From Bdellovibrionota bacterium (GTDB lineage: Bacteria; Bdellovibrionota_C; UBA2361; CAKMMH01): a stretch of DNA of 64,000 nt. Of this stretch, positions 2,418 to 40,236 are shown in pieces (the first letter of the stretch is position 1; the number at the start of each line of letters is the position of its first letter). The DNA is taken from the NCBI GenBank assembly GCA_050952645.1, contig JBMNLI010000010.1, positions 192,001 to 256,000 on the forward strand, written 5' to 3'. Under the pieces are notes generated by a model. The model did no database searches and had not been told where the DNA came from. It was given only the letters and a program-made list of their open reading frames with translations. The translations under genes were made by a program, and so were the position numbers.

Positions 2418-5400
2418 CTATTTTCTTTGACAAGTCCTAGTAGCGCCATTGCAACTAGCCCCTACACATAATTCACAAGTTAGACCTTCACAACATATCG
2501 TACCGCCTTGAAAGTTATCTCCTTCATAAAAACAAGACATCCCTTCACTATAACAGGAGCCAAAGCCACAGCAATATTTATTATCGTACTGGCATAAATA
2601 ATACTTATATTGCGTATTATGCTTACTACAAGAATTAGCATCACAATCTTCTCTTATACACCCAGGATGTATATCTTCACAAACATTATTTTTACATTCT
2701 TTTCCATCTTCGCAACATACGCCATTACATAAATCTTGAGAGCAACAATATTGTTCGTTATTATAATTATATATTCTACCAGTTTTGCAACACGCTTTTT
2801 TACCGCTACTATCTGTATACTCTGTTTCATCACTAGAACAACCACACCTAGCGCCATCACCATCACCTATACATCTATTTACAGGACAACATTGCCCTTC
2901 ACCGCCACACATTATATCTAGCTCTCCAGGGCAACACACTCCATCAGCTCCATAATTGCTACCCTGATTTTTAGTTTCTGTATAATTTGGAGCATCTACA
3001 CTACAACATTGACCTAAATACTTATTATAATCTACATTTGTAGGGCAGCAAGCAAATATCTCTGTTTCCCAATTGCTATATGCGCAATACTCTCCAAGTT
3101 TACAACAAGAAGAGCCACACGATACAGCTGTATCATCTGTAAGTGGATCGCAACAAACTTCTATTAGTTCTCCTGTGAAACTATTCGTAACACTCCCAGC
3201 ATGATAATCGTTTGGCTTAGCACAACAACCCTCTGTTCCATCTTCATTTGTATATACACCACCATCACAACAAGCTTGAGTGCCATCGTCTTCTTTATTA
3301 TAAACTTTACCATCTCCACAGCATAAGTAAGCACTAGCTGCGAAATCGCTACTATAATTTCCCGGCTTCTCTTCTAGTTTAGGCACTAATCTTGCACATT
3401 TATTAGCATCACAACATGTGCCACCACAATGAACTTGCCCCTCTTTTCCGCAACACGTTTGTGCTGGCAACTCTTCAAATTCCACTATCCCAGTTTCTTC
3501 ATTTATTCCAACTTTAAAAGATCTTATTGTGCCTTTTATATCAGTGCAATATTGATTTTCTTCACAACACGCACTACGACAGAGAAGTTTTTCTTGGTCA
3601 TCGCAACAAACTTCATCACCTTGCATATCATAACCTGTAAACTTAGGAGCATCATCTGGGCAACAAACTGTCTTAGGATAACTTTCGCCTTCATCTTCTA
3701 CAATCTCTCCCGTTTCATTTCCGACACTACCTTCAGGGCATTCCGAATCACATACAAAAGATTTGTTATCATATACATCGATTACATACCCTGCCGTCTC
3801 TCCATCTTCACAGCATAATTTTTCATCATTATTTCCTTCAAAATAATTATCTTCTTTACAACAGCTATCTCCTGGTTCTCCATTTTCTTTATCACAACAC
3901 CCATTGTTTTCGCCACCACTAGGATCATTTTCTCCGCTAGGGTCTAACATGCACACATAACCGCTAGGACATAAACACCCAGACACACTTAATGACGAAC
4001 TACTAGAATATTCTTCAGGATTTTCTCTAGAACTAGAAGAAGATTTAGATGACTCTAAGCTAGATTGACTACTAATATAAAAATTACTTCGAGACGAACT
4101 ACTTTTACTAGATGACGCAGACACTCTACTTAACGAAGACGAAACACTTCCTAGAGATATAGAAAAACTACTAGGTGCCGAAGAATAATTGCTAGACTTA
4201 CTAGACAATGAAGAACCACTAAACAAAGAACCGCTAGATATACTAGATACAGATGATATAACACTACTTAAGCTACTAAAAGAACTACTACTAGGCGATA
4301 AGCTTTTACTACTTAAAGAACTAGATGAACTGCTACTAGGTGATGAACTCTTACTAGAAGAGCTAGACAAACTACTCTTACTACTAGATGATAAACTAGA
4401 ACTTAAAGAGCTAGATGAGCTACTTTTACTCGAACTAGATGAACTAGAACTGCTTTTACTAGAACTACTTAATGAACTAGATGAACTGCTCTTAATACTA
4501 GCTGATGAGCTCTTGCTAGATGAAGAGCTAGATGAACTACTACTACTTGGCGATGAACTAGAACTGATTTTACTAGAACTAGGACTTAAAGAACTACTAG
4601 AACTGCTAGGTGATGAACTCCTACTAGAACTCGAACTTAAAGAACTAGAAGAGCTACTTTTACTAGATGAACTTGATAAGCTACTTTTACTTGAACTAGA
4701 TGAACTACTCTTACTACTAGACGGACTACTACTAGATGAAGAACTCTTGCTAGATGAACTACTACTAGGCGAAGAGCTCCTACTAGAACTCGAACTTAAA
4801 GAACTAGAAGAGCTACTTTTACTAGCTGAACTTGATAAGCTACTTTTACTAGATGAACTTGATAAGCTACTTTTACTTGAACTAGATGAACTACTCTTAC
4901 TACTAGACGGACTACTACTAGATGAAGAACTCTTACTAGAACTGCTTGAACTAGGGCTACTAGAAGAACTTAATGAACTACTCTTGCTACTAGAAGATGA
5001 ACTCTTACTAGAAGAACTACTCTTGCTTGAACTAGGACTTAAAGAACTACTTGACGAAGAACTCTTACTAGAGCTACTTTTGCTACTAGAACTACTACTA
5101 CTTAATGAACTAGATGAATTGCTCTTGCTACTAGAAGAAGAACTAGAACTTAAAGAACTACTAGATAAACTTAACGAACTGCTACTACTAGAACTTAAAA
5201 AGCTACTAGAAGAACTTGGCGAACTACTCTTGCTAGAACTAGAACTTTTCTTACTAGAACTACTACTACTAAGCGAACTACTAGAACTGCTAGGCGATAA
5301 TGAACTACTACTGCTAGAAGAACTAGGAGATGAGCTACTACTACTAGATGCACTGCTACTAGATAAACTGCTCCTACTAGACGATGAACTGCTAAAAGAC

Positions 5401-6186
5401 GAACTGCTACTAGACGAACTCCCCTTAGGTGAACTAGATGTATCGAAAATTTGCGCAGTCCTAAAAAAACCTACATGAAACGAATCTGCTATGAGAGGCT
5501 CATCATCTAACAACTTAAATATATCTAATATTATACCAGACTTAATAAAAATCTTCCCTCCCTTCATTGTCCTAAGTTTTATCGTCTCACTTTCTTTATC
5601 AACGGGAACAAAATCTACATATTTTTCCTTCCTCCACAAACTCCCAGGGAGTTTAGTAGTCTTTATACTATCATTATCTAATTTTATACCAGGAATTAAA
5701 ATACCATACTTAGCTATACACGGCTCCCCTCTTAACTCAAAATATTTAAAGCCTAGTTGCTTAGGTGTCGCCACCTTTTTCGATAATGCTAAATTATAAG
5801 CCGTAATCCAAAATTTACATATAGTAGGACAATCTTTAGATAGAGCTTGCACCTCAGGCACTTCGCATACTTCATCTATTTCACTTCGAGTTTTCCCCCT
5901 TATAGACTCACAATTAGGAACGTCTTTCTCTCTTAAACCGTCTAGGCAATACTCTCTTAAAGCTACCATAAAATGAGGTGAAATATCGACTACAAATTGC
6001 ACTGGTCTATTTTCTACAGCTATTAATAATCTTAGATTCCTATCATCTAAACACATCATATGAAAAACAAATACGAAAACATTCGTCACTACCCATGTAA
6101 GTACAAAATAATAAAAACAAACTATAGCCTGTTTCTGTTAAAACGCTACCACGACTCGAATGGGACTTTTTATATTTATTTTTCAT
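2418..6186 (-). CDS. Giant surface protein: TadE/pilin-like leader (frameshifted near 6128), poly-Ser tract, Cys-rich C-terminal repeats
   Basis: 1223-aa ORF 2418-6089 with a very long Ser-rich tract and a CC/C-rich C-terminal half. An ATG at 6186 gives MKNKYKKSHSSRGSVLTET, which joins the long frame as AIVCFYYFVLTWVV if one base is removed. Confidence 0.75.
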
Positions 6187-6564: not shown

Positions 6565-7800
6565 ATGGAAAATAATATACTAATTCGCAGAATAGAAAAA
6601 ATTAAAAAATCTTTAAGCAAGCTTTCTAGCAATGCTACTTTACTTTTATCGAGTGCCCCAGAAATCATAAAGTCTCGTGATATAACTTTTGATTTTAAAC
6701 AAGACACTAATTTTTATTATTTTACAAACTCACAAATAAAAAACGCTGTGCTTTTAATAAAATCAAATAGTGATGCTCCCATCTTGCTTTCACCTAGCCA
6801 AAGTAAAGAAGACATATTGTGGCATGGAGAAAGTGAGTCGGCAAAATCTTTAGCAAAAAAAATCGGTGCCGTTTACAAAGACTGTGAACTTAATGAGAAA
6901 GACATTATCTCTTATTTAAAAGAGTGCAATACTCTATGTTATAGCTCTTATAAATATTCTTTATCTAATAAAGTAGCTAAGTTTTTATTAAAAGAAAACA
7001 CTTCTACATTAGAGCGATTAAAGCTTCCATATAAATTTATAAATCAAGACTTTATAATATCACCGCTAAGACAAATAAAAGAAAAAGGCGAAATAGAAAA
7101 TATAAAAACCGCTGTAAAGATTACGCTCAATGCCATAGAGGAATTAAAAAACTTTTTACGCCCTGGGCTTACCGAACTCGAAGTTAAGCACTTTTTTGAA
7201 AATGAAATAAAAAAACAAGGAGCAAGCATAGCGTTTGATACTATTTGCGCAAGTGGTAAAAATGCAGCAACGCTTCATCACACTAGTTCTAATAAAGTGC
7301 TTAAAAAAGGAGAAATGCTTCTTATCGATTGTGGTGCTGAATATAATATGTATGCGGCAGATATTAGTAGAACGCTTCCAGTTTCTAGCACGTATTCTCC
7401 TATTCAAGAAATACTTATAAATGGAGTCAAAAAGGCTAAGCGTGATGCTATAAATAAGGCCGTTGTAGGTGCAAAATTTAAAGATGTGCAACAAGCTTCA
7501 GAGCTAGCTATTATAGAGTTATTAAAAGAGCTAAAAATTTTAAAAGGAAATAAGCTAAACATTTTAAAACAAAAATTACATAAAGAATTTTATCCTCACG
7601 GCGTTGGGCACTCTCTTGGGCTTGATACTCACGACTTAGGGAAACTTTTCGGCGATACTATTTTAAAAGAAAATATGGTTATTACGATAGAGCCCGGAGT
7701 TTATTTTAGTAAAAAGATTAACGATATCGTGCCGTGTGGAGTTAGGATAGAAGATGATATTATAATTAGAAAGAAAGAGTCTAAAGTGATAGAGTTTTAA
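6565..7800 (+). CDS. pepP: Xaa-Pro aminopeptidase (M24B)
   Basis: FKQDTNFYYFT N-domain, LIDCGAE, YAADISRT, HGVGHSLGLDTHD, TIEPGVY, GVRIEDD. Confidence 0.92.
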   Translation: MENNILIRRIEKIKKSLSKLSSNATLLLSSAPEIIKSRDITFDFKQDTNFYYFTNSQIKNAVLLIKSNSDAPILLSPSQSKEDILWHGESESAKSLAKKIGAVYKDCELNEKDIISYLKECNTLCYSSYKYSLSNKVAKFLLKENTSTLERLKLPYKFINQDFIISPLRQIKEKGEIENIKTAVKITLNAIEELKNFLRPGLTELEVKHFFENEIKKQGASIAFDTICASGKNAATLHHTSSNKVLKKGEMLLIDCGAEYNMYAADISRTLPVSSTYSPIQEILINGVKKAKRDAINKAVVGAKFKDVQQASELAIIELLKELKILKGNKLNILKQKLHKEFYPHGVGHSLGLDTHDLGKLFGDTILKENMVITIEPGVYFSKKINDIVPCGVRIEDDIIIRKKESKVIEF

Positions 7801-7807
7801 ATAAAAT

Positions 7808-7969
7808 GGTTCTTTGACGTTTTAAGAGGGCTTAGAAAAATTGTTTTTTTAGGGGTTAGCTTAAAAGAAAATCGGAGCTAGTTAAAGCTTGCGGAGATTT
7901 TCTTTTGGGCTTCGTCGGGGTGAGTGATACTTCTTAAGGTCTAAAACCTACCTTAAAACGTGAAGAGCC
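7808..7969. mobile_element. ISL3-type MITE, copy 1 (162 bp)
   Basis: Termini GGTTCTTTGACGTTTTAAG / CTTAAAACGTGAAGAGCC; internal hairpin AAAAGAAAATC...GATTTTCTTTT; left flank AATAAAAT. Confidence 0.8.
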
Positions 7970-8079
7970 AGTTTATTTTAGTAAAAAGATTAACGATATC
8001 GTGCCGTGTGGAGTTAGGATAGAAGATGATATTATAATTAGAAAGAAAGAGTCTAAAGTGATAGAGTTTTAAATAAAAT

Positions 8080-8241
8080 GGTTCTTTGACGTTTTAAGAG
8101 GGCTTAGAAAAATTGTTTTTTTAGGGGTTAGCTTAAAAGAAAATCGGAGCTAGTTAAAGCTTGCGGAGATTTTCTTTTGGGCTTCGTCGCTGAGTTATAC
8201 TAATCTTAAGGTCTAAAACCTACCTTAAAACGTGAAGAGCC
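8080..8241. mobile_element. ISL3-type MITE, copy 2 (162 bp)
   Basis: Same termini and hairpin as copy 1. Confidence 0.8.
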
Positions 8242-8351
8242 AGTTTATTTTAGTAAAAAGATTAACGATATCGTGCCGTGTGGAGTTAGGATAGAAGATG
8301 ATATTATAATTAGAAAGAAAGAGTCTAAAGTGATAGAGTTTTAAATAAAAT

Positions 8352-8457
8352 GGTTCTTTGACGTTTTAAGAGGGCTTAGAAAAATTGTTTTTAGGCTTCG
8401 TGGAGTTGGTGATACTAACTCTTAAGGTCTAAAACCTACCTTAAAACGTGAAGAGCC
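8352..8457. mobile_element. ISL3-type MITE, copy 3 (106 bp, internal hairpin deleted)
   Basis: Same termini; flanked on both sides by 8-bp AATAAAAT (8344-8351 and 8458-8465). Confidence 0.8.
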
Positions 8458-35026: not shown

Positions 35027-35683
35027 TTACAGCCCTTGCACTATATACCAAAGGCCAAAAAATCCGATTATAGTTTTAAATATAAACAAGTCTGCGAATA
35101 TTTGCCATCTATTTAGAATCTTAGCTAAAAGGCATAGAGAAATATCGCAAAGTAAAAAAACGAATAAAAAAGGGATAGACTTTTCAAAAGCTATTTTTAA
35201 CGAACTTAATATAAAGGTAAATATTTCATTATTCGTAATATTTGCATCTAATGAAAAATAAGTCGCATCTATTATCGCTCTAAAACTTTCTTCAAAGCCC
35301 CCATAGAAAATCCAAACGAACCAAACATACTTGCTAACTAATGTTGAGAAGTAAGATTGCGTCTCTCCTAATATGGGATTTAACACATACGAGGTATTAG
35401 CTCCCCTACCTGCATCGAAAAGCTCCGCCATAACGCTAGCTATATAAACTTTCATAAAGACTTGAACTGAAAATAAAAAACCGATTAGAATTTCATAATA
35501 ATAATTTTGACTTTCTAAAGTATGACCTGCACAAAACACAACAAAGAAAGACATTAGAAACGACAGCACGCACTTAGTTACAGTCGAGGATATACCGCCA
35601 GCTATAGGAACTAAGATAAGGAATGATATAAATCTTAAAAAATAACTAAAAAAACTTGTTAAATAAACATCAAAAGCAATCAT
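35027..35683 (-). CDS. fliR: Type III export gate subunit FliR/SctT (divergent)
   Basis: FLRFISF...VP, EILIGF, AELFDAGRG, many TMs; follows fliQ/sctS. Confidence 0.8.
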   Translation of the reverse strand: MIAFDVYLTSFFSYFLRFISFLILVPIAGGISSTVTKCVLSFLMSFFVVFCAGHTLESQNYYYEILIGFLFSVQVFMKVYIASVMAELFDAGRGANTSYVLNPILGETQSYFSTLVSKYVWFVWIFYGGFEESFRAIIDATYFSLDANITNNEIFTFILSSLKIAFEKSIPFLFVFLLCDISLCLLAKILNRWQIFADLFIFKTIIGFFGLWYIVQGL

Positions 35684-35946
35684 ATACTTAGCGATCCATA
35701 TTTTATTATTTCTACAAATGCACTATTAAAATAGTTGATAACCAAAGTATAAAAATAATTAAAACAAAAATAAAAAGTAGCAAAAACTACGATACACTTA
35801 ACTATATAAGATAAACTTTGCTCTTGGATTTGCGTTATAGTTTGCAAAAATGCTATAAATATCGAGCATAGCCCACTTAGAAGCAATGGAAGCCCAGAAA
35901 CGATTAAAATGATAAGAACTCCTTGAACTAAAAAATTTGTATTCAT
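35680..35946 (-). CDS. fliQ: Type III export gate subunit FliQ/SctS
   Basis: FLQTITQIQEQSLSYIVK signature, 88 aa. Confidence 0.9.
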   Translation of the reverse strand: MNTNFLVQGVLIILIVSGLPLLLSGLCSIFIAFLQTITQIQEQSLSYIVKCIVVFATFYFCFNYFYTLVINYFNSAFVEIIKYGSLSI

Positions 35947-36030
35947 AAATCACCTTACCAAGCAAAAAAAAGGCTCTTCACGTTTTAAGTGGGTTAAGGA
36001 CCTTAAAATTAGTATCACGCACCCCACGAA

Positions 36031-37923
36031 ATAGGGTAGAGCGAGGGCTATACCCTCTCCCTCCCGTCGCACCGTACGTACGGGTCTCGTATACGGCGCT
36101 CCATTAATATAATATCAAGTAATACTCAGGTAATACGTCAAAGGGTCGATTAAACCAATTCGTTCCTTTGTTTTACGCCCCAATATTTTAGGGCTTAATG
36201 CATAATTCACTACGTACCACGAACTGCGTCTATACCAGCCGAGTCTGCTGTTAGCAACCTTATAGATTTCTTCATTTCTAAAATTGCAACCAAGCATTCG
36301 GTTCAATTTCTTAAGATTTAGATAGATTCGTCTCGGCAATTTCCACTGTTTAAGTATTATAACCCTCACTTTGTGTCTAAGCCATTGACCATATTTATCT
36401 ATAAAAGTCTTAAGAGTTCCTATCTTATAATAGTTTATCCAACCTTTAATTAACCAGCTTAGCTGTTGAAATGTCGAACCTAACGTTCGTGCCATTGCCT
36501 TCCGTCTACAAAGAATTTCTCTAGTTTTATCATAGAGTTTTCGTTTGCGATCTTCAGCAGGTTTACATTTCCAAGTTTTATACCCACTCTTCCAGTAGGT
36601 AAAGCCTAAGAAAGTGCTTTCCGTCGGCCTAGAGATTTTACTCTTACTTGAATTAATTTTAAGTCGTAGCTTACGCTCCAACCAACTCGCAACGGACTTC
36701 ATTACTCTATTAGCAGCCTTTTCACTTCTAACAAATATATTACAGTCATCGGCATATCTAACAAACTTAAGTCCTCTTGCTTCCAGTTCCTTGTCGAGCT
36801 TATCAAGGTATATGTTAGATAATACTGGGGATAATGGACCTCCTTGCGGAACTCCTTTCTCACTTACAGTAAACAATCCATCTTCCATTATACCAGCTCT
36901 TAAGAACTGTCTTATCAATCGTAGTGTCTTCGCATCTTTGATGCGTTCCCTGATTATCGAAATTAATTTGTCGTGATTAACAGTATCAAAATATTTCTCT
37001 ATGTCTAGGTCTATAACCCAATCATAGCCTCTTTTCAAGTACTCAAGAGTTCTATATACTGCTAGATGGCAATTCCTTCTAGGTCTAAAGCCATAGCTAC
37101 TATTACTAAAATACTTTTCGTATCCGCGTGCTAGTATTTGCGCTACCGCTTGTTGAATTACCCTATCTACTACTGTAGGTATTCCTAAAGGTCTCATCTT
37201 ACCATTAGCTTTAGGTATATACACTCTCTTAACTGGACTCGGCTTATAATTCCCTTCACGTATCTGAGATTTTATCTCTTCTCTGTGAACGGCAAAATAG
37301 TCTTCAAGCTCATCTACTGGCATATCATCTACACCAGATGCACCTTTATTTCGCTTAACAGCCTTTATAGCCTCATCTATATTTTTGTCTGATATAATTA
37401 GTTCAATCAATTCCACCTGTTGCTCCTCCCTCTGTTTGTAAAGCTACTAGAAAACACCCCCTCTATCTTCTGCCCCCACAGGTTACGTTCCTGTTTGTTA
37501 GGCATATCTTCAATTTCGGACTCTTCTAGCCTTGCTTACAGTGATTCACAATATATTAACGTTCAACCCTTCCTTGAGTGGTGTCTCAAGTACTATGGTA
37601 TCAACTGACTTCCAGATATAAGCTTTATATCGCACGTGCATAGCACGCTATCTGGACCTCCGGGGTAAGGCATAGTTCTTTCACCAGACAACCTCCAGAT
37701 TTACTCGTTTGGTTTTACGTTTGTCTTTAGGGCTTCGGTTTGTAGCGCAACCTCACCCACCATTTAGCCTTGTATCTGGTTTCTGTTCGTAGGCTCCTTG
37801 GTTTTGATCCGCCACTTCCTTCACTCTAACATTACTGCTTCGAGCTTGTGGCATCACTACACTTGGTGACAACTACCCGTGACGGGACTTTCACCCGCTA
37901 GAACTATGTCGTGCCCGGCACAC
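36031..37923 (-). mobile_element. Complete group IIC intron (1893 nt)
   Basis: 5' GTGTGCCGGGCAC; domain V GAGCGCCGTATACGAGACCCGTACGTACGGTGCG with CGC triad; 3' end CCCTAT; both boundaries fixed by empty-site copies reading GGGC|TTCGT. Confidence 0.93.
36115..37416 (-). CDS. ltrA: Group II intron reverse transcriptase/maturase (class C, no endonuclease domain)
   Basis: NKGASGVD, RPLGIPTVVDR, SYGFRP, GVPQGGPLSP, RYADD, maturase GWINYY; no HNH. Confidence 0.96.
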   Translation of the reverse strand: MELIELIISDKNIDEAIKAVKRNKGASGVDDMPVDELEDYFAVHREEIKSQIREGNYKPSPVKRVYIPKANGKMRPLGIPTVVDRVIQQAVAQILARGYEKYFSNSSYGFRPRRNCHLAVYRTLEYLKRGYDWVIDLDIEKYFDTVNHDKLISIIRERIKDAKTLRLIRQFLRAGIMEDGLFTVSEKGVPQGGPLSPVLSNIYLDKLDKELEARGLKFVRYADDCNIFVRSEKAANRVMKSVASWLERKLRLKINSSKSKISRPTESTFLGFTYWKSGYKTWKCKPAEDRKRKLYDKTREILCRRKAMARTLGSTFQQLSWLIKGWINYYKIGTLKTFIDKYGQWLRHKVRVIILKQWKLPRRIYLNLKKLNRMLGCNFRNEEIYKVANSRLGWYRRSSWYVVNYALSPKILGRKTKERIGLIDPLTYYLSIT

Positions 37924-38094
37924 GCCCAAAAGAAAATTGACTTTAAAGAAATTTGCATAAAATAAATTACTTTAAATATAGTTGTAATTTTTCTTTAAAC
38001 TATAGCTAGTTTTCTACAAAAGCCAATTTTCTTTTAAGCTAACCCAAAAAACAATTTTTCTAACCCACCTAAAACGTGAAGAACCAAAAAAAAA

Positions 38095-38970
38095 TCAATT
38101 TAGAAACGATAAAATTAAAGATTTCCCTAAAAGTAGCCACCCATCTATAAGCACAAAGATTAATATTTTTAATGGGAGAGATACTAAAGACGGCGTAAGC
38201 ATATACATTCCAAGCCCTACTAAAATATTTGCAACGATTATATCGATTATTAAAAATGGAATCAGTAAACTAACACTCATAGCAAAGGCCTCTTTTAGTT
38301 CTGAAAATAAAAAAGCTAAAAGCACTATAGGGAAACTTTCTTCATCTCTAGTTTTTAATTCTTCTTTTTGAACTTTTAAAGCTTCTAAATTTTTATTTAA
38401 AACTTCTTTGCCATCTTTAAAAACTATTTCTTTATTATTTTCTTTATTTTTTTCTTTGCTAATTTCTTTATTACTTACTTTATTACTTACTTTATAACTC
38501 TCATTATTGCTTTCATTATTGCTTTCTTTATTGCTCTCACTATTGCTTTCTTTACTTTTCTCAATATCGTGTTTTTTAACTATATCTTTTTTTATATCTA
38601 CTAAAAGAGCTAACTCTTTTTTCCCTGAATGCTTAAGCATAAAATTTTTCCAAGGAACTGAAATTTTTTTGAAAATATCCATAGCATCATTAAATTTAAA
38701 TTCTTGAAGCTTTACATTTTGAAAGCTTTTAGCGATATCATGCGATTCTTCATACACGGGGTACATTATAAATAGGCTCAAAGAAAATGATAAAACTAAA
38801 ATTAAGATATTCCCTGGGAATTGTTGCGTGCCGAACCCATTTCTTAAGAGCGTAAGCACTATGCTTATTTTTAAATACGATGTGCAAACTCCTAATATAA
38901 TAGGGATAAGCGATACTAATAAAGTTATAAAAATAAACCACATTGGATTTATAGCCATGCTCGTGTTCAT
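38095..38970 (-). CDS. fliP: Type III export gate subunit FliP/SctR with low-complexity insertion
   Basis: TSYLKISIVLTLLRNGFGTQQFP, SELKEAF, PFLIIDIIVANIL, SLPLKILIFVLIDGW; no N-terminal signal peptide. Confidence 0.93.
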   Translation of the reverse strand: MNTSMAINPMWFIFITLLVSLIPIILGVCTSYLKISIVLTLLRNGFGTQQFPGNILILVLSFSLSLFIMYPVYEESHDIAKSFQNVKLQEFKFNDAMDIFKKISVPWKNFMLKHSGKKELALLVDIKKDIVKKHDIEKSKESNSESNKESNNESNNESYKVSNKVSNKEISKEKNKENNKEIVFKDGKEVLNKNLEALKVQKEELKTRDEESFPIVLLAFLFSELKEAFAMSVSLLIPFLIIDIIVANILVGLGMYMLTPSLVSLPLKILIFVLIDGWLLLGKSLILSFLN

Positions 38971-39917
38971 ACAGATTGCCTTAAAATAATATTTCTAACG
39001 TTTAAGCCTTTGCTTTTTAAAGTCTCTAAAATTTTTGTTCTCTCTTTATGAAAATTTAAATAATCCTTGTAAGAATTTATAGAAATATTTATATCTACTA
39101 TATTTTGATTTTCTAAAAAATTTAAATTAAATAAGTTTCCAGCCTCTGAGGTATACTCTAAGGAAATACTCGAGCCATTTTCAAACTTTTGAACGCTAAG
39201 CTCATCAATCCTTTCTTGAAACTTTTCAAAGCTTAAGAAACTCTCCGATGCGTTCTTGTTTTTGCTTTGCTCTCCGTTAAACGATGTATCAAAAAAACTA
39301 TTATCATTATTTTGAACTATTACGCTTCTATTGTCGCACTCCTGTAAACTATCGCTTGTGCATTCTAAATTTGTGCTACGCTCGACATCACTTTCTATTT
39401 CTTCTATAAAAGATTTTTCTTTTTCTCCATCTAATTCTTTGACTTTAAGGCTTGCCTTATCTTTTTCAAATAAGTCCTTAAATCTTTTTGACACGATAAA
39501 AGTTTCAATATTTTCCGTCGTCTCTATATTTTCTTTCTTTATTTTTTGAGTTAATTTTATATCTTCTATTTTTTTATAAATAAACTCTAGCATCTTATTA
39601 GACTTATTTAATTTCTTGGTTAAGTCTTGAGTTTTAAGCTCTAGCTCGCTTGCGATCGCCTTGTTCTTTTCTAAATCTTTCGACTTTTCTACGATTCTCT
39701 TTTGCAAAAACTTTAAATTATTTTTTGCGTCTTTATCATCTTTAGTTTTTCTTTCTATAAAAGAGCTTCTTACTCTCTCAAAATCGCTATTTTTTTCCTG
39801 AATTCTCGTTTTTACTTCTTGAAACTTTACGTTTTCTTCTCTTAAGCGATTTTCAAGCTCAAGCTTTGATATAGTGTCGTATTCATATTTTTTTATTAGA
39901 AAATCTTTTTCTTGCAT
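38967..39917 (-). CDS. Possible SctO/FliJ-like coiled coil fused to an SctP/FliK-like C-terminal domain
   Basis: ~140-aa coiled coil, acidic linker, C-terminal beta-rich domain ending ILETLKSKGLNVRNIIL; stop overlaps the fliP/sctR start. Confidence 0.55.
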   Translation of the reverse strand: MQEKDFLIKKYEYDTISKLELENRLREENVKFQEVKTRIQEKNSDFERVRSSFIERKTKDDKDAKNNLKFLQKRIVEKSKDLEKNKAIASELELKTQDLTKKLNKSNKMLEFIYKKIEDIKLTQKIKKENIETTENIETFIVSKRFKDLFEKDKASLKVKELDGEKEKSFIEEIESDVERSTNLECTSDSLQECDNRSVIVQNNDNSFFDTSFNGEQSKNKNASESFLSFEKFQERIDELSVQKFENGSSISLEYTSEAGNLFNLNFLENQNIVDINISINSYKDYLNFHKERTKILETLKSKGLNVRNIILRQSV

Positions 39918-39942
39918 TTTTTAAAACTACGGCTTAAAAAAA

Positions 39943-40236
39943 TTAAATACCATTTTGAAGCTTTCTAACGCTTCCTACGCCTGCTTCTGCTACCCGAGAA
40001 ACGAGTTCGACTTTCATCGCTAAATTATTTACATTTATCTGACAACGCATTAAATCTTTTAACTCGTTCATAGAATTTTTTTGCGTCTCCGATACCTTAT
40101 CGGTTTTTATCGAATCGGTTTTTATCGATGTGAAATGTGATAGATAATCTTTAAAACTCTTATTCGATACAGCATTATTTAAAAGATTATCGTCTAGACC
40201 CATGTTTTTTAATGAATTTAAAAATGAAACTTTCAC
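39943..40236 (-). CDS. Small type III rod/needle-like protein (SctI/SctF/FliE-like)
   Basis: 97 aa; SFKDYL then C-terminal helical hairpin DLMRCQINVNNLAMKVELVSRVAEAGVGSVRKLQN. Confidence 0.6.
   Translation of the reverse strand: MKVSFLNSLKNMGLDDNLLNNAVSNKSFKDYLSHFTSIKTDSIKTDKVSETQKNSMNELKDLMRCQINVNNLAMKVELVSRVAEAGVGSVRKLQNGI

What the first reader, a model, noticed from the sequence alone, without database searches (positions are those of the whole stretch)
35964..38094. Group IIC intron inserted in an ISL3-type MITE, with empty target copies in the same window
Seen: removing 36031-37923 restores ...TTTTCTTTTGGGC|TTCGT..., the junction present uninterrupted in MITE copies 1 and 2. The site lies a few nt 3' of the MITE's internal hairpin (AAAGAAAATTGGCTTT/AAAGTCAATTTTCTTT). 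Established: IIC introns insert after DNA stem-loops (terminators, attC sites); GG(C/T)TCTT ends with 8-bp AT-rich duplications typify ISL3. Inference: a nested parasite pair, where the MITE spreads landing pads and, with both ends intact, could carry the intron as cargo. The predicted EBS1 loop (CGCUA, 37743-37747) can pair with exon GGC.
Basis: partly seen in the sequence, partly recalled or inferred. Interest (0 to 1): 0.72.

Follow-up and report, generated by a model that had tools for sequence, protein, structure and literature searches.

The report
Intron homes into a mini-transposon hairpin
A mobile intron of a known class sits at the foot of a hairpin inside a small transposon in nine of its ten copies in this genome, likely because that transposon supplies most of the hairpin sites the intron is predicted to pair with; the sequences show no sign that the transposon has carried the intron around.

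Summary
A 1,893-nt class C (IIC) group II intron (36031-37923) splits a 222-bp ISL3-type MITE; removing it restores the junction seen in window copies 1 and 2. Genome-wide, 9 of 10 intron copies lie in this MITE: 6 at this site, 3 at a mirror site on the other strand at the hairpin's other foot; the tenth follows an ordinary terminator-like hairpin. EBS1 (GCUA) is confirmed by covariation in 26 relatives, whose lineage otherwise inserts after ordinary, unrelated terminators (37 of 38 exons). The MITE is 1% of the genome but gives 95 hairpin-plus-IBS1 sites against 6-17 elsewhere; occupancy per site is alike (9/95 versus 1/17 to 1/6), so supply explains the enrichment. ISL3 type is supported by 8-bp duplications (11 of 24) and one ISL3 element with the same ends, whose transposase gene is frameshifted. 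Cargo transport is not supported: filled MITEs differ by 6-31 of about 175 bases and do not cluster, while their introns are 99.7-100% alike. The scan noted this pairing before on other DNA of this genome. Verdict: known mechanism, new kind of target supply.

The parts
36031..37923 (-). Group II intron, class C (IIC), 1,893 nt; one of 10 genomic copies
36115..37416 (-). Intron-encoded RT/maturase, 433 aa, no endonuclease domain, open frame
   Evidence: TIGR04416 410 bits; RVT_1 + GIIM only
37743..37746 (-). EBS1 (GCUA) within the loop CGCUA of the stem-loop 37737-37752
   Evidence: 78 of 104 Watson-Crick pairs with IBS1 in 26 relatives, shuffled mean 35.6, maximum 55
36069..36099 (-). Domain V with CGC triad; domain VI follows to 36031
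   Evidence: (z = -3.6)
37924..37927 (-). IBS1 (GGGC), last four bases of the 5' exon
35972..38085 (-). Filled MITE (long form, 222 bp without the intron)
38062..38085 (-). MITE left terminal inverted repeat, 24 of 24 identical to the left end of the genome's ISL3 element
35972..35995 (-). MITE right terminal inverted repeat
38019..38035 (-). Hairpin 5' arm
37928..37944 (-). Hairpin 3' arm, ending 4 nt before the intron
38036..38043 (+). Mirror insertion site (AAGC|TAAC, junction 38039/38040), empty here, filled in three other MITE copies
35964..35971 (.). 8-bp target duplication, sctS side (poly-A/T)
38086..38093 (.). 8-bp target duplication, sctR side (poly-A/T)
7808..7969 (+). Empty MITE copy 1, medium form (162 bp), junction at 7910/7911
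8080..8241 (+). Empty MITE copy 2, medium form, junction at 8182/8183; tandem duplicate of copy 1
8352..8457 (+). Empty MITE copy 3, short form (106 bp) without the hairpin
38095..38970 (-). sctR/fliP-family gene upstream of the MITE; intron lies in the same orientation
35680..35946 (-). sctS/fliQ-family gene downstream of the MITE

Best explanation
This is a class C (IIC) group II intron that likely retrohomed, copy by copy, into a hairpin carried by an ISL3-type MITE already in place, because that MITE supplies most of the sites that fit the intron's predicted target rule. Shown: ten near-identical copies; all ten follow a predicted stem-loop and the bases TTT-N-R-G-C, with T (9) or A (1) next; the MITE hairpin has such a site at each foot, one per strand, and both are used (6 and 3 copies); the MITE offers 95 two-armed sites against 6-17 comparable sites elsewhere; filled MITEs are unrelated to each other. 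Inferred from known class C biology: the intron RNP would recognise the stem-loop in single-stranded DNA at the replication fork, pair EBS1 GCUA with RGC, reverse-splice, and be copied by its RT from a nascent-strand primer. Inferred: the lineage came from Bacillota, where relatives use U-rich terminators, and an EBS1 reading RGC fits few host terminators but fits the MITE. The benefit runs one way, from MITE to intron.
For: Copies and flanks. Class C protein: best solved-structure hits 7uim 361.6 bits and 6ar1 (GsI-IIC RT) 337.3 bits against LtrA 165.2 and 6me0 132.6; no En domain. EBS1 by covariation: 78 of 104 pairs, 0 of 10,000 shuffles reach it (kin are not independent). Hairpin before all ten sites. 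Supply: 40 sense + 55 mirror two-armed sites, 6 + 3 filled; non-MITE non-coding hairpin sites with the same IBS1: 6 of 109 terminator-like hairpins or 17 under a second rule, 1 filled in each; with stems of score 12 or more the MITE holds 91 of 115 non-coding candidates, P(9 or more of 10) = 0.35. Order of events: a paralogous gene family shows MITE-free alleles, MITE with 8-bp duplication (C12:89290) and MITE plus intron at the same spot (C6:23218); tandem empty and filled neighbours at C17:233760/234052 and C7:145k. Independent gains. Relatives after ordinary terminators: 37 of 38 readable exons pass a stem test, none resembles another or the MITE. Strand: 8 of 10 introns lie on the G-rich strand, the direction reported for class C (PMC8919778 section 10).
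Against: The enrichment stays significant if weak stems count as targets (stem score 8 or more, non-coding: 132 of 411, P = 0.0003), so the supply argument rests on where the stem threshold is set. The long MITE hairpin is AT-rich with an inner part of about 84 nt, unlike the short-loop hairpins used by relatives, and its predicted stem runs through IBS1. The natural no-hairpin control is too small: 0 of 12 short MITEs filled against 6 of 40 (P = 0.19; 0 of 21 with all other sites, P = 0.07). The strand bias is not significant (P = 0.055). The one intron substitution shared by several copies marks exactly the three mirror-site copies (1 in 120 by chance), which site-blind homing does not predict. 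No splicing or mobility was measured.
Confidence: 0.75

Rival explanations
1. The intron recognises this MITE specifically (arm sequence or shape read by the protein or RNA), beyond a generic stem-loop plus IBS1.
For: 9 of 10 copies in the MITE; enrichment significant at loose stem thresholds; the arms and IBS1 are the least variable part of the MITE (mean departure from consensus 0.024 and 0.033 against 0.068 for the loop and 0.144 for the 13 bases after the site, 30 copies).
Against: The C15:58210 copy follows an unrelated hairpin; occupancy per site is no higher in the MITE (9/95) than outside (1/17 to 1/6); long and medium forms with different loops are both used.
Confidence: 0.1
2. The intron inserts at many hairpins, and selection removes insertions everywhere except in the dispensable MITE.
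For: Most sequence-compatible sites outside the MITE are in coding DNA (3,052 sites, 794 non-coding or MITE). Targeting IS elements is discussed as a way to reach non-essential sites (PMC3522654, passages).
Against: Selection does not explain why all nine MITE insertions fall at just two base positions; the window copy sits inside an export-apparatus operon, not an obviously neutral place. It can act on top of the best explanation.
Confidence: 0.06
3. The ISL3 transposase has moved MITE plus intron as one 2.1-kb unit.
For: Filled copies at 35972-38085 and C6:23218-25333 have both ends and an exact 8-bp duplication; the size is close to the 1,860-bp ISL3 element; a chimeric MITE with extra sequence stands at two places with different duplications, so the ends tolerate added DNA.
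Against: No two filled MITEs are alike (6-31 changes in about 175 sites) while introns differ at 19 columns in all, 14 of them single-base gaps; filled label needs 8 changes for 8 rows; C6 has an empty twin at the same paralog site; the transposase gene is frameshifted, also in the contig of run X1.
Confidence: 0.05
4. The intron spreads between MITE copies by homologous recombination or gene conversion, keeping its position.
For: The shared substitution at 37399 marks the three mirror-site copies; MITE copies look mosaic.
Against: Flanks of those three copies differ as close as 17 bases upstream and 3-5 bases downstream, so no co-conversion is seen; a contig of run X4 joins the same allele to the sense-site 3' exon; the C15 copy has no MITE homology at its junctions.
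Confidence: 0.04

Closest known systems
Class C (IIC) group II introns that insert after intrinsic terminators (B.h.I1, GsI-IIC, the intron of PDB 7uim)
   Same: Protein similarity, no En domain, CGC triad, short EBS1-IBS1, stem-loop before the site; Toor et al. note 'terminator motifs or other inverted repeats' and splice sites 3-11 nt past the stem (PMC1702495, abstract start and passages); per-site occupancy of 4-11% reported for two class C introns (PMC3522654) is like the 9% here.
   Different: The stem-loop is the inner hairpin of a mobile repeat, AT-rich with a long inner part, and is used on both strands; EBS1 begins GC, seen in 1 of 26 relatives.
IIC-attC introns
   Same: A class C intron tied to one repeated, structured DNA family instead of terminators (PMC4424553, PMC7923331, passages).
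   Different: No integron integrase over the cut-off in this genome; the site is not TTGT/T; both strands are used; the repeat moves by ISL3-type transposition.
IS-homing group II introns (E.c.I4, c-Ha.de.I1 in ISPlu15-like elements; RmInt1 in ISRm2011-2 recalled)
   Same: An intron whose target supply is a transposon family (PMC3522654, passages).
   Different: Those are described as sequence homing sites within IS elements; here the target is a hairpin in a non-coding MITE read by a class C intron.
ISL3-mobilised MITE of Microcystis aeruginosa
   Same: Ends starting GGCTCTT, 8-nt direct repeats, matching ends on ISL3 transposase elements (PMC11448079, passages).
   Different: No intron in that MITE in the passages read; no sequence comparison was made.
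Thiomargarita 'MITEtron'
   Same: MITE and self-splicing intron nested together (PMC4853749, passages).
   Different: Reverse nesting: a MITE inside a group I intron.

Membership tests
Class C (IIC) group II intron | Intron-encoded protein of class C | tested here: met
   7uim 361.6, 6ar1 337.3, 5hhj 306.4 bits against LtrA 165.2 and 6me0 132.6; by best hits, no tree built
Class C (IIC) group II intron | No endonuclease domain | tested here: met
   RVT_1 and GIIM only, 433 aa
Class C (IIC) group II intron | GUGYG...AY ends, domain V with CGC triad, domain VI | tested here: met
   that CGC marks IIC is recalled (PMC4424553 says 'some introns')
Class C (IIC) group II intron | Short (3-4 bp) EBS1-IBS1 | tested here: met
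   GCUA against GGGC, AGGC, AAGC, TAGC
Class C (IIC) group II intron | EBS3-IBS3 pair; no EBS2-IBS2 | tested here: inconclusive
   first 3' exon base is T in 9 of 10 copies; EBS3 was not located and the lack of EBS2 was not examined
Class C (IIC) group II intron | Stem-loop just upstream of the insertion site | tested here: met
   predicted for all 10 sites
Class C (IIC) group II intron | Splicing and retrohoming activity | not testable with these tools
   no RNA holder listed
IIC-attC intron | Insertion in attC bottom strand at TTGT/T, integron context | tested here: not met
   sites are RGC/W on both strands; TIGR02249 best 22.8 bits against cut-off 265 (genome 93.75% complete)
ISL3-type MITE | Terminal inverted repeats beginning GG(C/T)TCTT | tested here: met
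   compare PMC11448079
ISL3-type MITE | 8-bp AT-rich target duplication | tested here: met
   exact 8-bp match in 11 of 24 elements with intact ends (of 56 paired), shuffled mean 0.13, maximum 2; 0-1 at every other length from 4 to 12; empty and filled alleles
ISL3-type MITE | An ISL3 transposase element with the same ends in the genome | tested here: met
   C10:339480-341339, NF033550 228.7 bits, left end 24/24, right end 23/25, own 8-bp duplication; gene frameshifted near codon 28
ISL3-type MITE | Short, non-coding, many copies | tested here: met
   102-225 bp forms; 139 segments, 19.2 kb
ISL3-type MITE | Interior derived from the ISL3 element by deletion | tested here: not met
   the ISL3 interior matches a second family of about 270 bp; the intron-target family shares only the ends, so its interior has another origin
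ISL3-type MITE | Mobilised by the ISL3 transposase | not testable with these tools
   inferred from shared ends and duplications
REP/REPIN with RAYT | Y1 (HUH) transposase in the genome | tested here: not met
   no PF01797 match (genome 93.75% complete)
Composite element carrying the intron as cargo | Near-identical filled copies at different target duplications | tested here: not met

The most novel reading that the evidence does not exclude
A lasting partnership: after entering a host with few fitting terminators, the intron's EBS1 was selected to read the two feet of the MITE palindrome, giving class C introns a third target kind beside terminators and attC sites. The intron has cycled in and out of the MITE for longer than its present copies show (two sister MITEs carry GGGC-GTGTG-GG, the join expected if an intron was lost by a 3-base microhomology, and the bases just after both sites are the most variable inner part of the MITE), while MITE transposition keeps making fresh sites and can now and then carry the intron.
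Probability: 0.15. Interest if true: 0.62.

Novelty: new variant of a known kind. Interest (0 to 1): 0.38.

Why it matters
Class C introns are usually described as hiding after terminators or in attC sites. Here one lineage member depends on a transposon-borne palindrome that offers a target on either strand, so its spread is set by a second parasite's copy number. The genome gives a ready natural series for testing what the stem-loop must look like: long-loop, medium-loop and hairpin-free forms with the same IBS1 and 3' exon, plus two mirror sites. The mechanism itself needs nothing new, and the cargo claim, which would have been the surprise, has no support.

Tried and rejected
Cargo transposition: rejected as history. 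attC/integron and REP/RAYT readings: no integrase over cut-off, no Y1 transposase. Assembly error as cause of the ISL3 frameshift: a contig of run X1 spans it with no difference. Link between the 37399 allele and the mirror site as a mechanism: the change is silent, and one X4 contig pairs it with the sense 3' exon; left unexplained. Hairpin-free MITEs as a negative control: right direction, not significant. Strand bias: 8 of 10, P = 0.055. Search for the system in kin: close intron relatives not found in the 40 relatives searched (3 had matches of 35-45% identity), ISL3 not found at E 1e-40 in 90 genomes of the order, MITE not found in the 3 genomes of the family beyond two weak AT-rich hits; these are fragmented assemblies in which repeats are often lost. 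Further intron remnants: motif search found only the two GTGTG copies inside MITEs. No RNA holder listed. PF14690 not matched. Folding domain I alone gave no significant z-score (-1.03). Papers not held: Mohr 2018 and Robart 2007, so they are cited second-hand; one search returned an unrelated paper. No supplements were read.

Full report
Observation. The element at 36031-37923 (minus strand) begins GUGUG and ends CCCUAU, matches Rfam RF02001 (106.7 bits) and RF00029 (42.1 bits) and encodes a 433-aa RT/maturase (TIGR04416, 410 bits; RVT_1 and GIIM only). Cutting it out leaves a 222-bp element, 35972-38085, with the junction TTTTGGGC|TTCGT, which stands intact at 7910/7911 and 8182/8183. Those two copies are a 162-bp form with a shorter loop and belong to one tandem array of 272-bp units. 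The filled MITE lies between sctR- and sctS-family genes, all on the minus strand. The window copy lacks one base near 37659 that the other nine copies and all four runs have, probably an assembly slip.

Intron class. Best solved-structure hits are 7uim (361.6 bits) and GsI-IIC RT (337.3), far above LtrA (165.2) and 6me0 (132.6). Domain V has a CGC triad and the 3' end folds well (z = -3.6). I aligned domain I of 26 relatives (of 38 with a readable 5' exon; 47 loci of 57% protein identity or more were examined out of 160 fetched). The four bases in the loop homologous to 37743-37746 pair with the last four exon bases in 78 of 104 positions; the mean of 10,000 shuffles is 35.6 and the maximum 55 (relatives are not independent). 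Only 1 of the 26 has an EBS1 starting GC.

Genomic copies. The genome (1.95 Mb, 17 contigs, 93.75% complete) holds 10 copies, 99.66-100% identical; the RVT_1 search found no other RT. Five have an intact frame, one is broken by an IS1634 element, four have frameshifts that may be assembly errors. Six sit at the window's site, three at the mirror site on the opposite strand (TTTTAAGC|TA) at the other foot of the same hairpin, and one (C15:58210) after an unrelated short-loop hairpin between converging genes. A stem-loop is predicted before all ten; in the MITE the stem extends through IBS1. No MITE has both sites filled.

The MITE. 198 end-like motifs were found against 1 in the reversed genome; 56 could be paired. 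Of 24 with intact ends, 11 have an exact 8-bp duplication (shuffled mean 0.13; 0-1 at other lengths). One ISL3 element (C10:339480-341339; NF033550) has the same ends and its own 8-bp duplication. Its gene is frameshifted near codon 28 (homologues are about 440-460 aa), and a contig of run X1 spans the spot without a difference. The ISL3 interior matches a second MITE family of about 270 bp; the intron-target family shares only the ends. It comes in long (about 223 bp), medium (about 160) and hairpin-free (about 104) forms. A paralogous gene family gives a three-state series at one position: five alleles without MITE (one at window 5404-5970), MITE with the 8-bp duplication (C12:89290), MITE plus intron (C6:23218). 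One contig of run X4, a strain with scattered differences in the flanks, joins 35970 to 38087 with six other letters, which reads as an allele without MITE or intron; its depth is 3.6, so this is weak.

Why the MITE? MITE-like sequence is 1.0% of the genome (19,210 bp). Of 3,052 sites of the form TTT-N-R-G-C|W, 165 are in it; with a stem score of 8, 10, 12 or 14 and counting only non-coding sites, its share is 132/411, 117/207, 91/115 and 76/89, and the chance of 9 or more of 10 is 0.0003, 0.03, 0.35 and 0.56. Counted directly, the MITE has 40 sense and 55 mirror sites with both arms, 6 and 3 filled. Outside it, 6 of 109 non-coding terminator-like hairpins have the right bases, or 17 under a second rule, four of them look-alikes of the MITE hairpin (29 if a G-T wobble is allowed); one is filled. 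Occupancy is thus about 9% inside and 6-17% outside, under rules that are not identical. Supply accounts for the pattern if a fairly long stem is needed; with weak stems allowed, an excess remains. Hairpin-free MITEs keep IBS1 and the 3' exon and are never filled (0 of 12), but this is not significant (P = 0.19).

Relatives. The closest proteins found are from Erysipelotrichaceae and Clostridia (57-77%). Of 38 readable 5' exons, 37 pass a simple stem test, most look like ordinary terminators, none resembles another (nine Lactimicrobium and six Allobaculum copies all differ) and none matches the MITE; one locus has an end-like motif somewhere in it. No close relative was found in 40 kin genomes. 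The lineage is therefore a normal terminator user, and arrival by horizontal transfer is the likely history. The host's phylum was not determined here; earlier scan notes call it Bdellovibrionota (unchecked).

Cargo test. 42 long-form copies were aligned; 41 went into a tree (one truncated copy left out; the ninth filled MITE is a medium-form array and is not in this set). The 8 filled rows need 8 changes (shuffled mean 7.5); pairwise they differ by 6-31 changes in about 175 sites, and each has an empty copy as nearest or joint-nearest neighbour (bootstrap not fully settled). The ten introns vary at 19 columns in about 1,900, 14 of them gaps. Introns are younger than the MITE insertions that hold them. 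Against simple site-blind homing: the only substitution shared by several copies (37399, silent) marks exactly the three mirror-site copies (1 in 120). Their flanks are not co-converted, and runs X3 and X4 carry the same allele, in X4 with the sense 3' exon, so chance or history is the likeliest cause, but it is unexplained.

Mechanism. Shown by sequence: target rule, two mirror sites, order MITE then intron, independent gains. From the literature: IIC introns use short IBS1 and IBS3 plus a DNA hairpin, and En-less introns prime on nascent strands (PMC3898094, passages); class C prefers the lagging-strand template (PMC8919778, section 10). Here 8 of 10 introns lie on the G-rich strand, as that predicts if G-rich marks the leading strand (recalled), P = 0.055; a two-sided target would give a site on the favoured strand whichever way the MITE points. 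The window copy would be transcribed with the export operon and could serve as a donor; this is untested.

Comparison and novelty. Terminators, attC sites and 'other inverted repeats' are the reported class C targets (PMC4424553, PMC1702495, PMC7923331, PMC7306698; passages), and IS-homing introns are known (PMC3522654, passages). Nine searches listed no paper on a class C intron homing to a MITE; searches returned none at all, I saw listings only for most hits, and two key papers (Robart 2007, Mohr 2018) are not held, so this is not proof of absence. The scan's earlier notes e1-737245 and e1-737246 describe the same pairing on other DNA of this genome. What this report adds is the full count, the EBS1 test, the supply calculation and the negative cargo test. 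Verdict: real, a new variant of a known kind, interest 0.38.

Noticed in passing
G000:C10:108923-110780 (L004): An IS1634-family element (562-aa transposase, open frame) has inserted into one intron copy, making a three-layer nest; a loose end in run X2 shows the same junction.
   Followed up: partly
G000:C10:95386-95608 and C12:229804-230028: Two sister MITEs (support 99/92, different flanks) read GGGC-GTGTG-GG at the insertion site, the join expected if an intron was deleted at a 3-base microhomology; two ordinary changes could also give it.
   Followed up: partly
window 36018-36030 and 38040-38050; all MITE copies: The bases just past both insertion sites vary much among copies (18 haplotypes in 30 copies for the windows past the sense site), while the hairpin arms and IBS1 hardly vary; cause unknown. 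Truncated copies inflate the figures for the ends.
   Followed up: partly
window 37399: A silent intron substitution marks exactly the three mirror-site copies in this genome; also present in runs X3 and X4.
   Followed up: partly
G000:C10:339480-341339 (L003): The only ISL3 transposase gene is frameshifted in an A-run near codon 28; a second MITE family of about 270 bp derives from this element.
   Followed up: yes
window 7698-8457: Three tandem 272-bp units of a gene end plus MITE; the duplicated gene end is identical while the MITE interiors differ.
   Followed up: partly
window 4270-5970 and paralogues on C6, C7, C10, C12, C14, C17: A family of near-identical genes with long serine-rich repeats; some alleles are broken by the MITE, two are cut off at a hairpin foot (C7:161k, C14:19k).
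   Followed up: partly
G000:C10:296781-297009, C7:50619-50671: Hairpin modules with the same arms and feet but other loops, outside the BLAST-defined MITE; the hairpin may be an older unit than the MITE.
   Followed up: no
G000:C7:31331-35066: The filled MITE at C7:31508 has lost its left part two bases after the intron; a second right end 1.6 kb on faces it, without a target duplication.
   Followed up: no
G000:C9:42962-43772, C10:108200-112600, C10:293800-294230: Tandem arrays of MITE inner units (196, 98 and 130 bp), each unit with a hairpin and both target sites.
   Followed up: partly
G000:C10:336129-336410 and C17:233760-234043: A chimeric MITE carrying an added right end of the second family stands at two places with different 8-bp duplications.
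   Followed up: no
window 35027-40236: sctT/S/R (or fliR/Q/P)-family cluster converging on rho; the 316-aa ORF at 38967-39917 matched no Pfam or NCBIfam family.
   Followed up: no
L036-L039 (Allobaculum): Copies of one intron in one genome carry different EBS1 words, each fitting its own exon, so EBS1 changes quickly in this lineage.
   Followed up: partly
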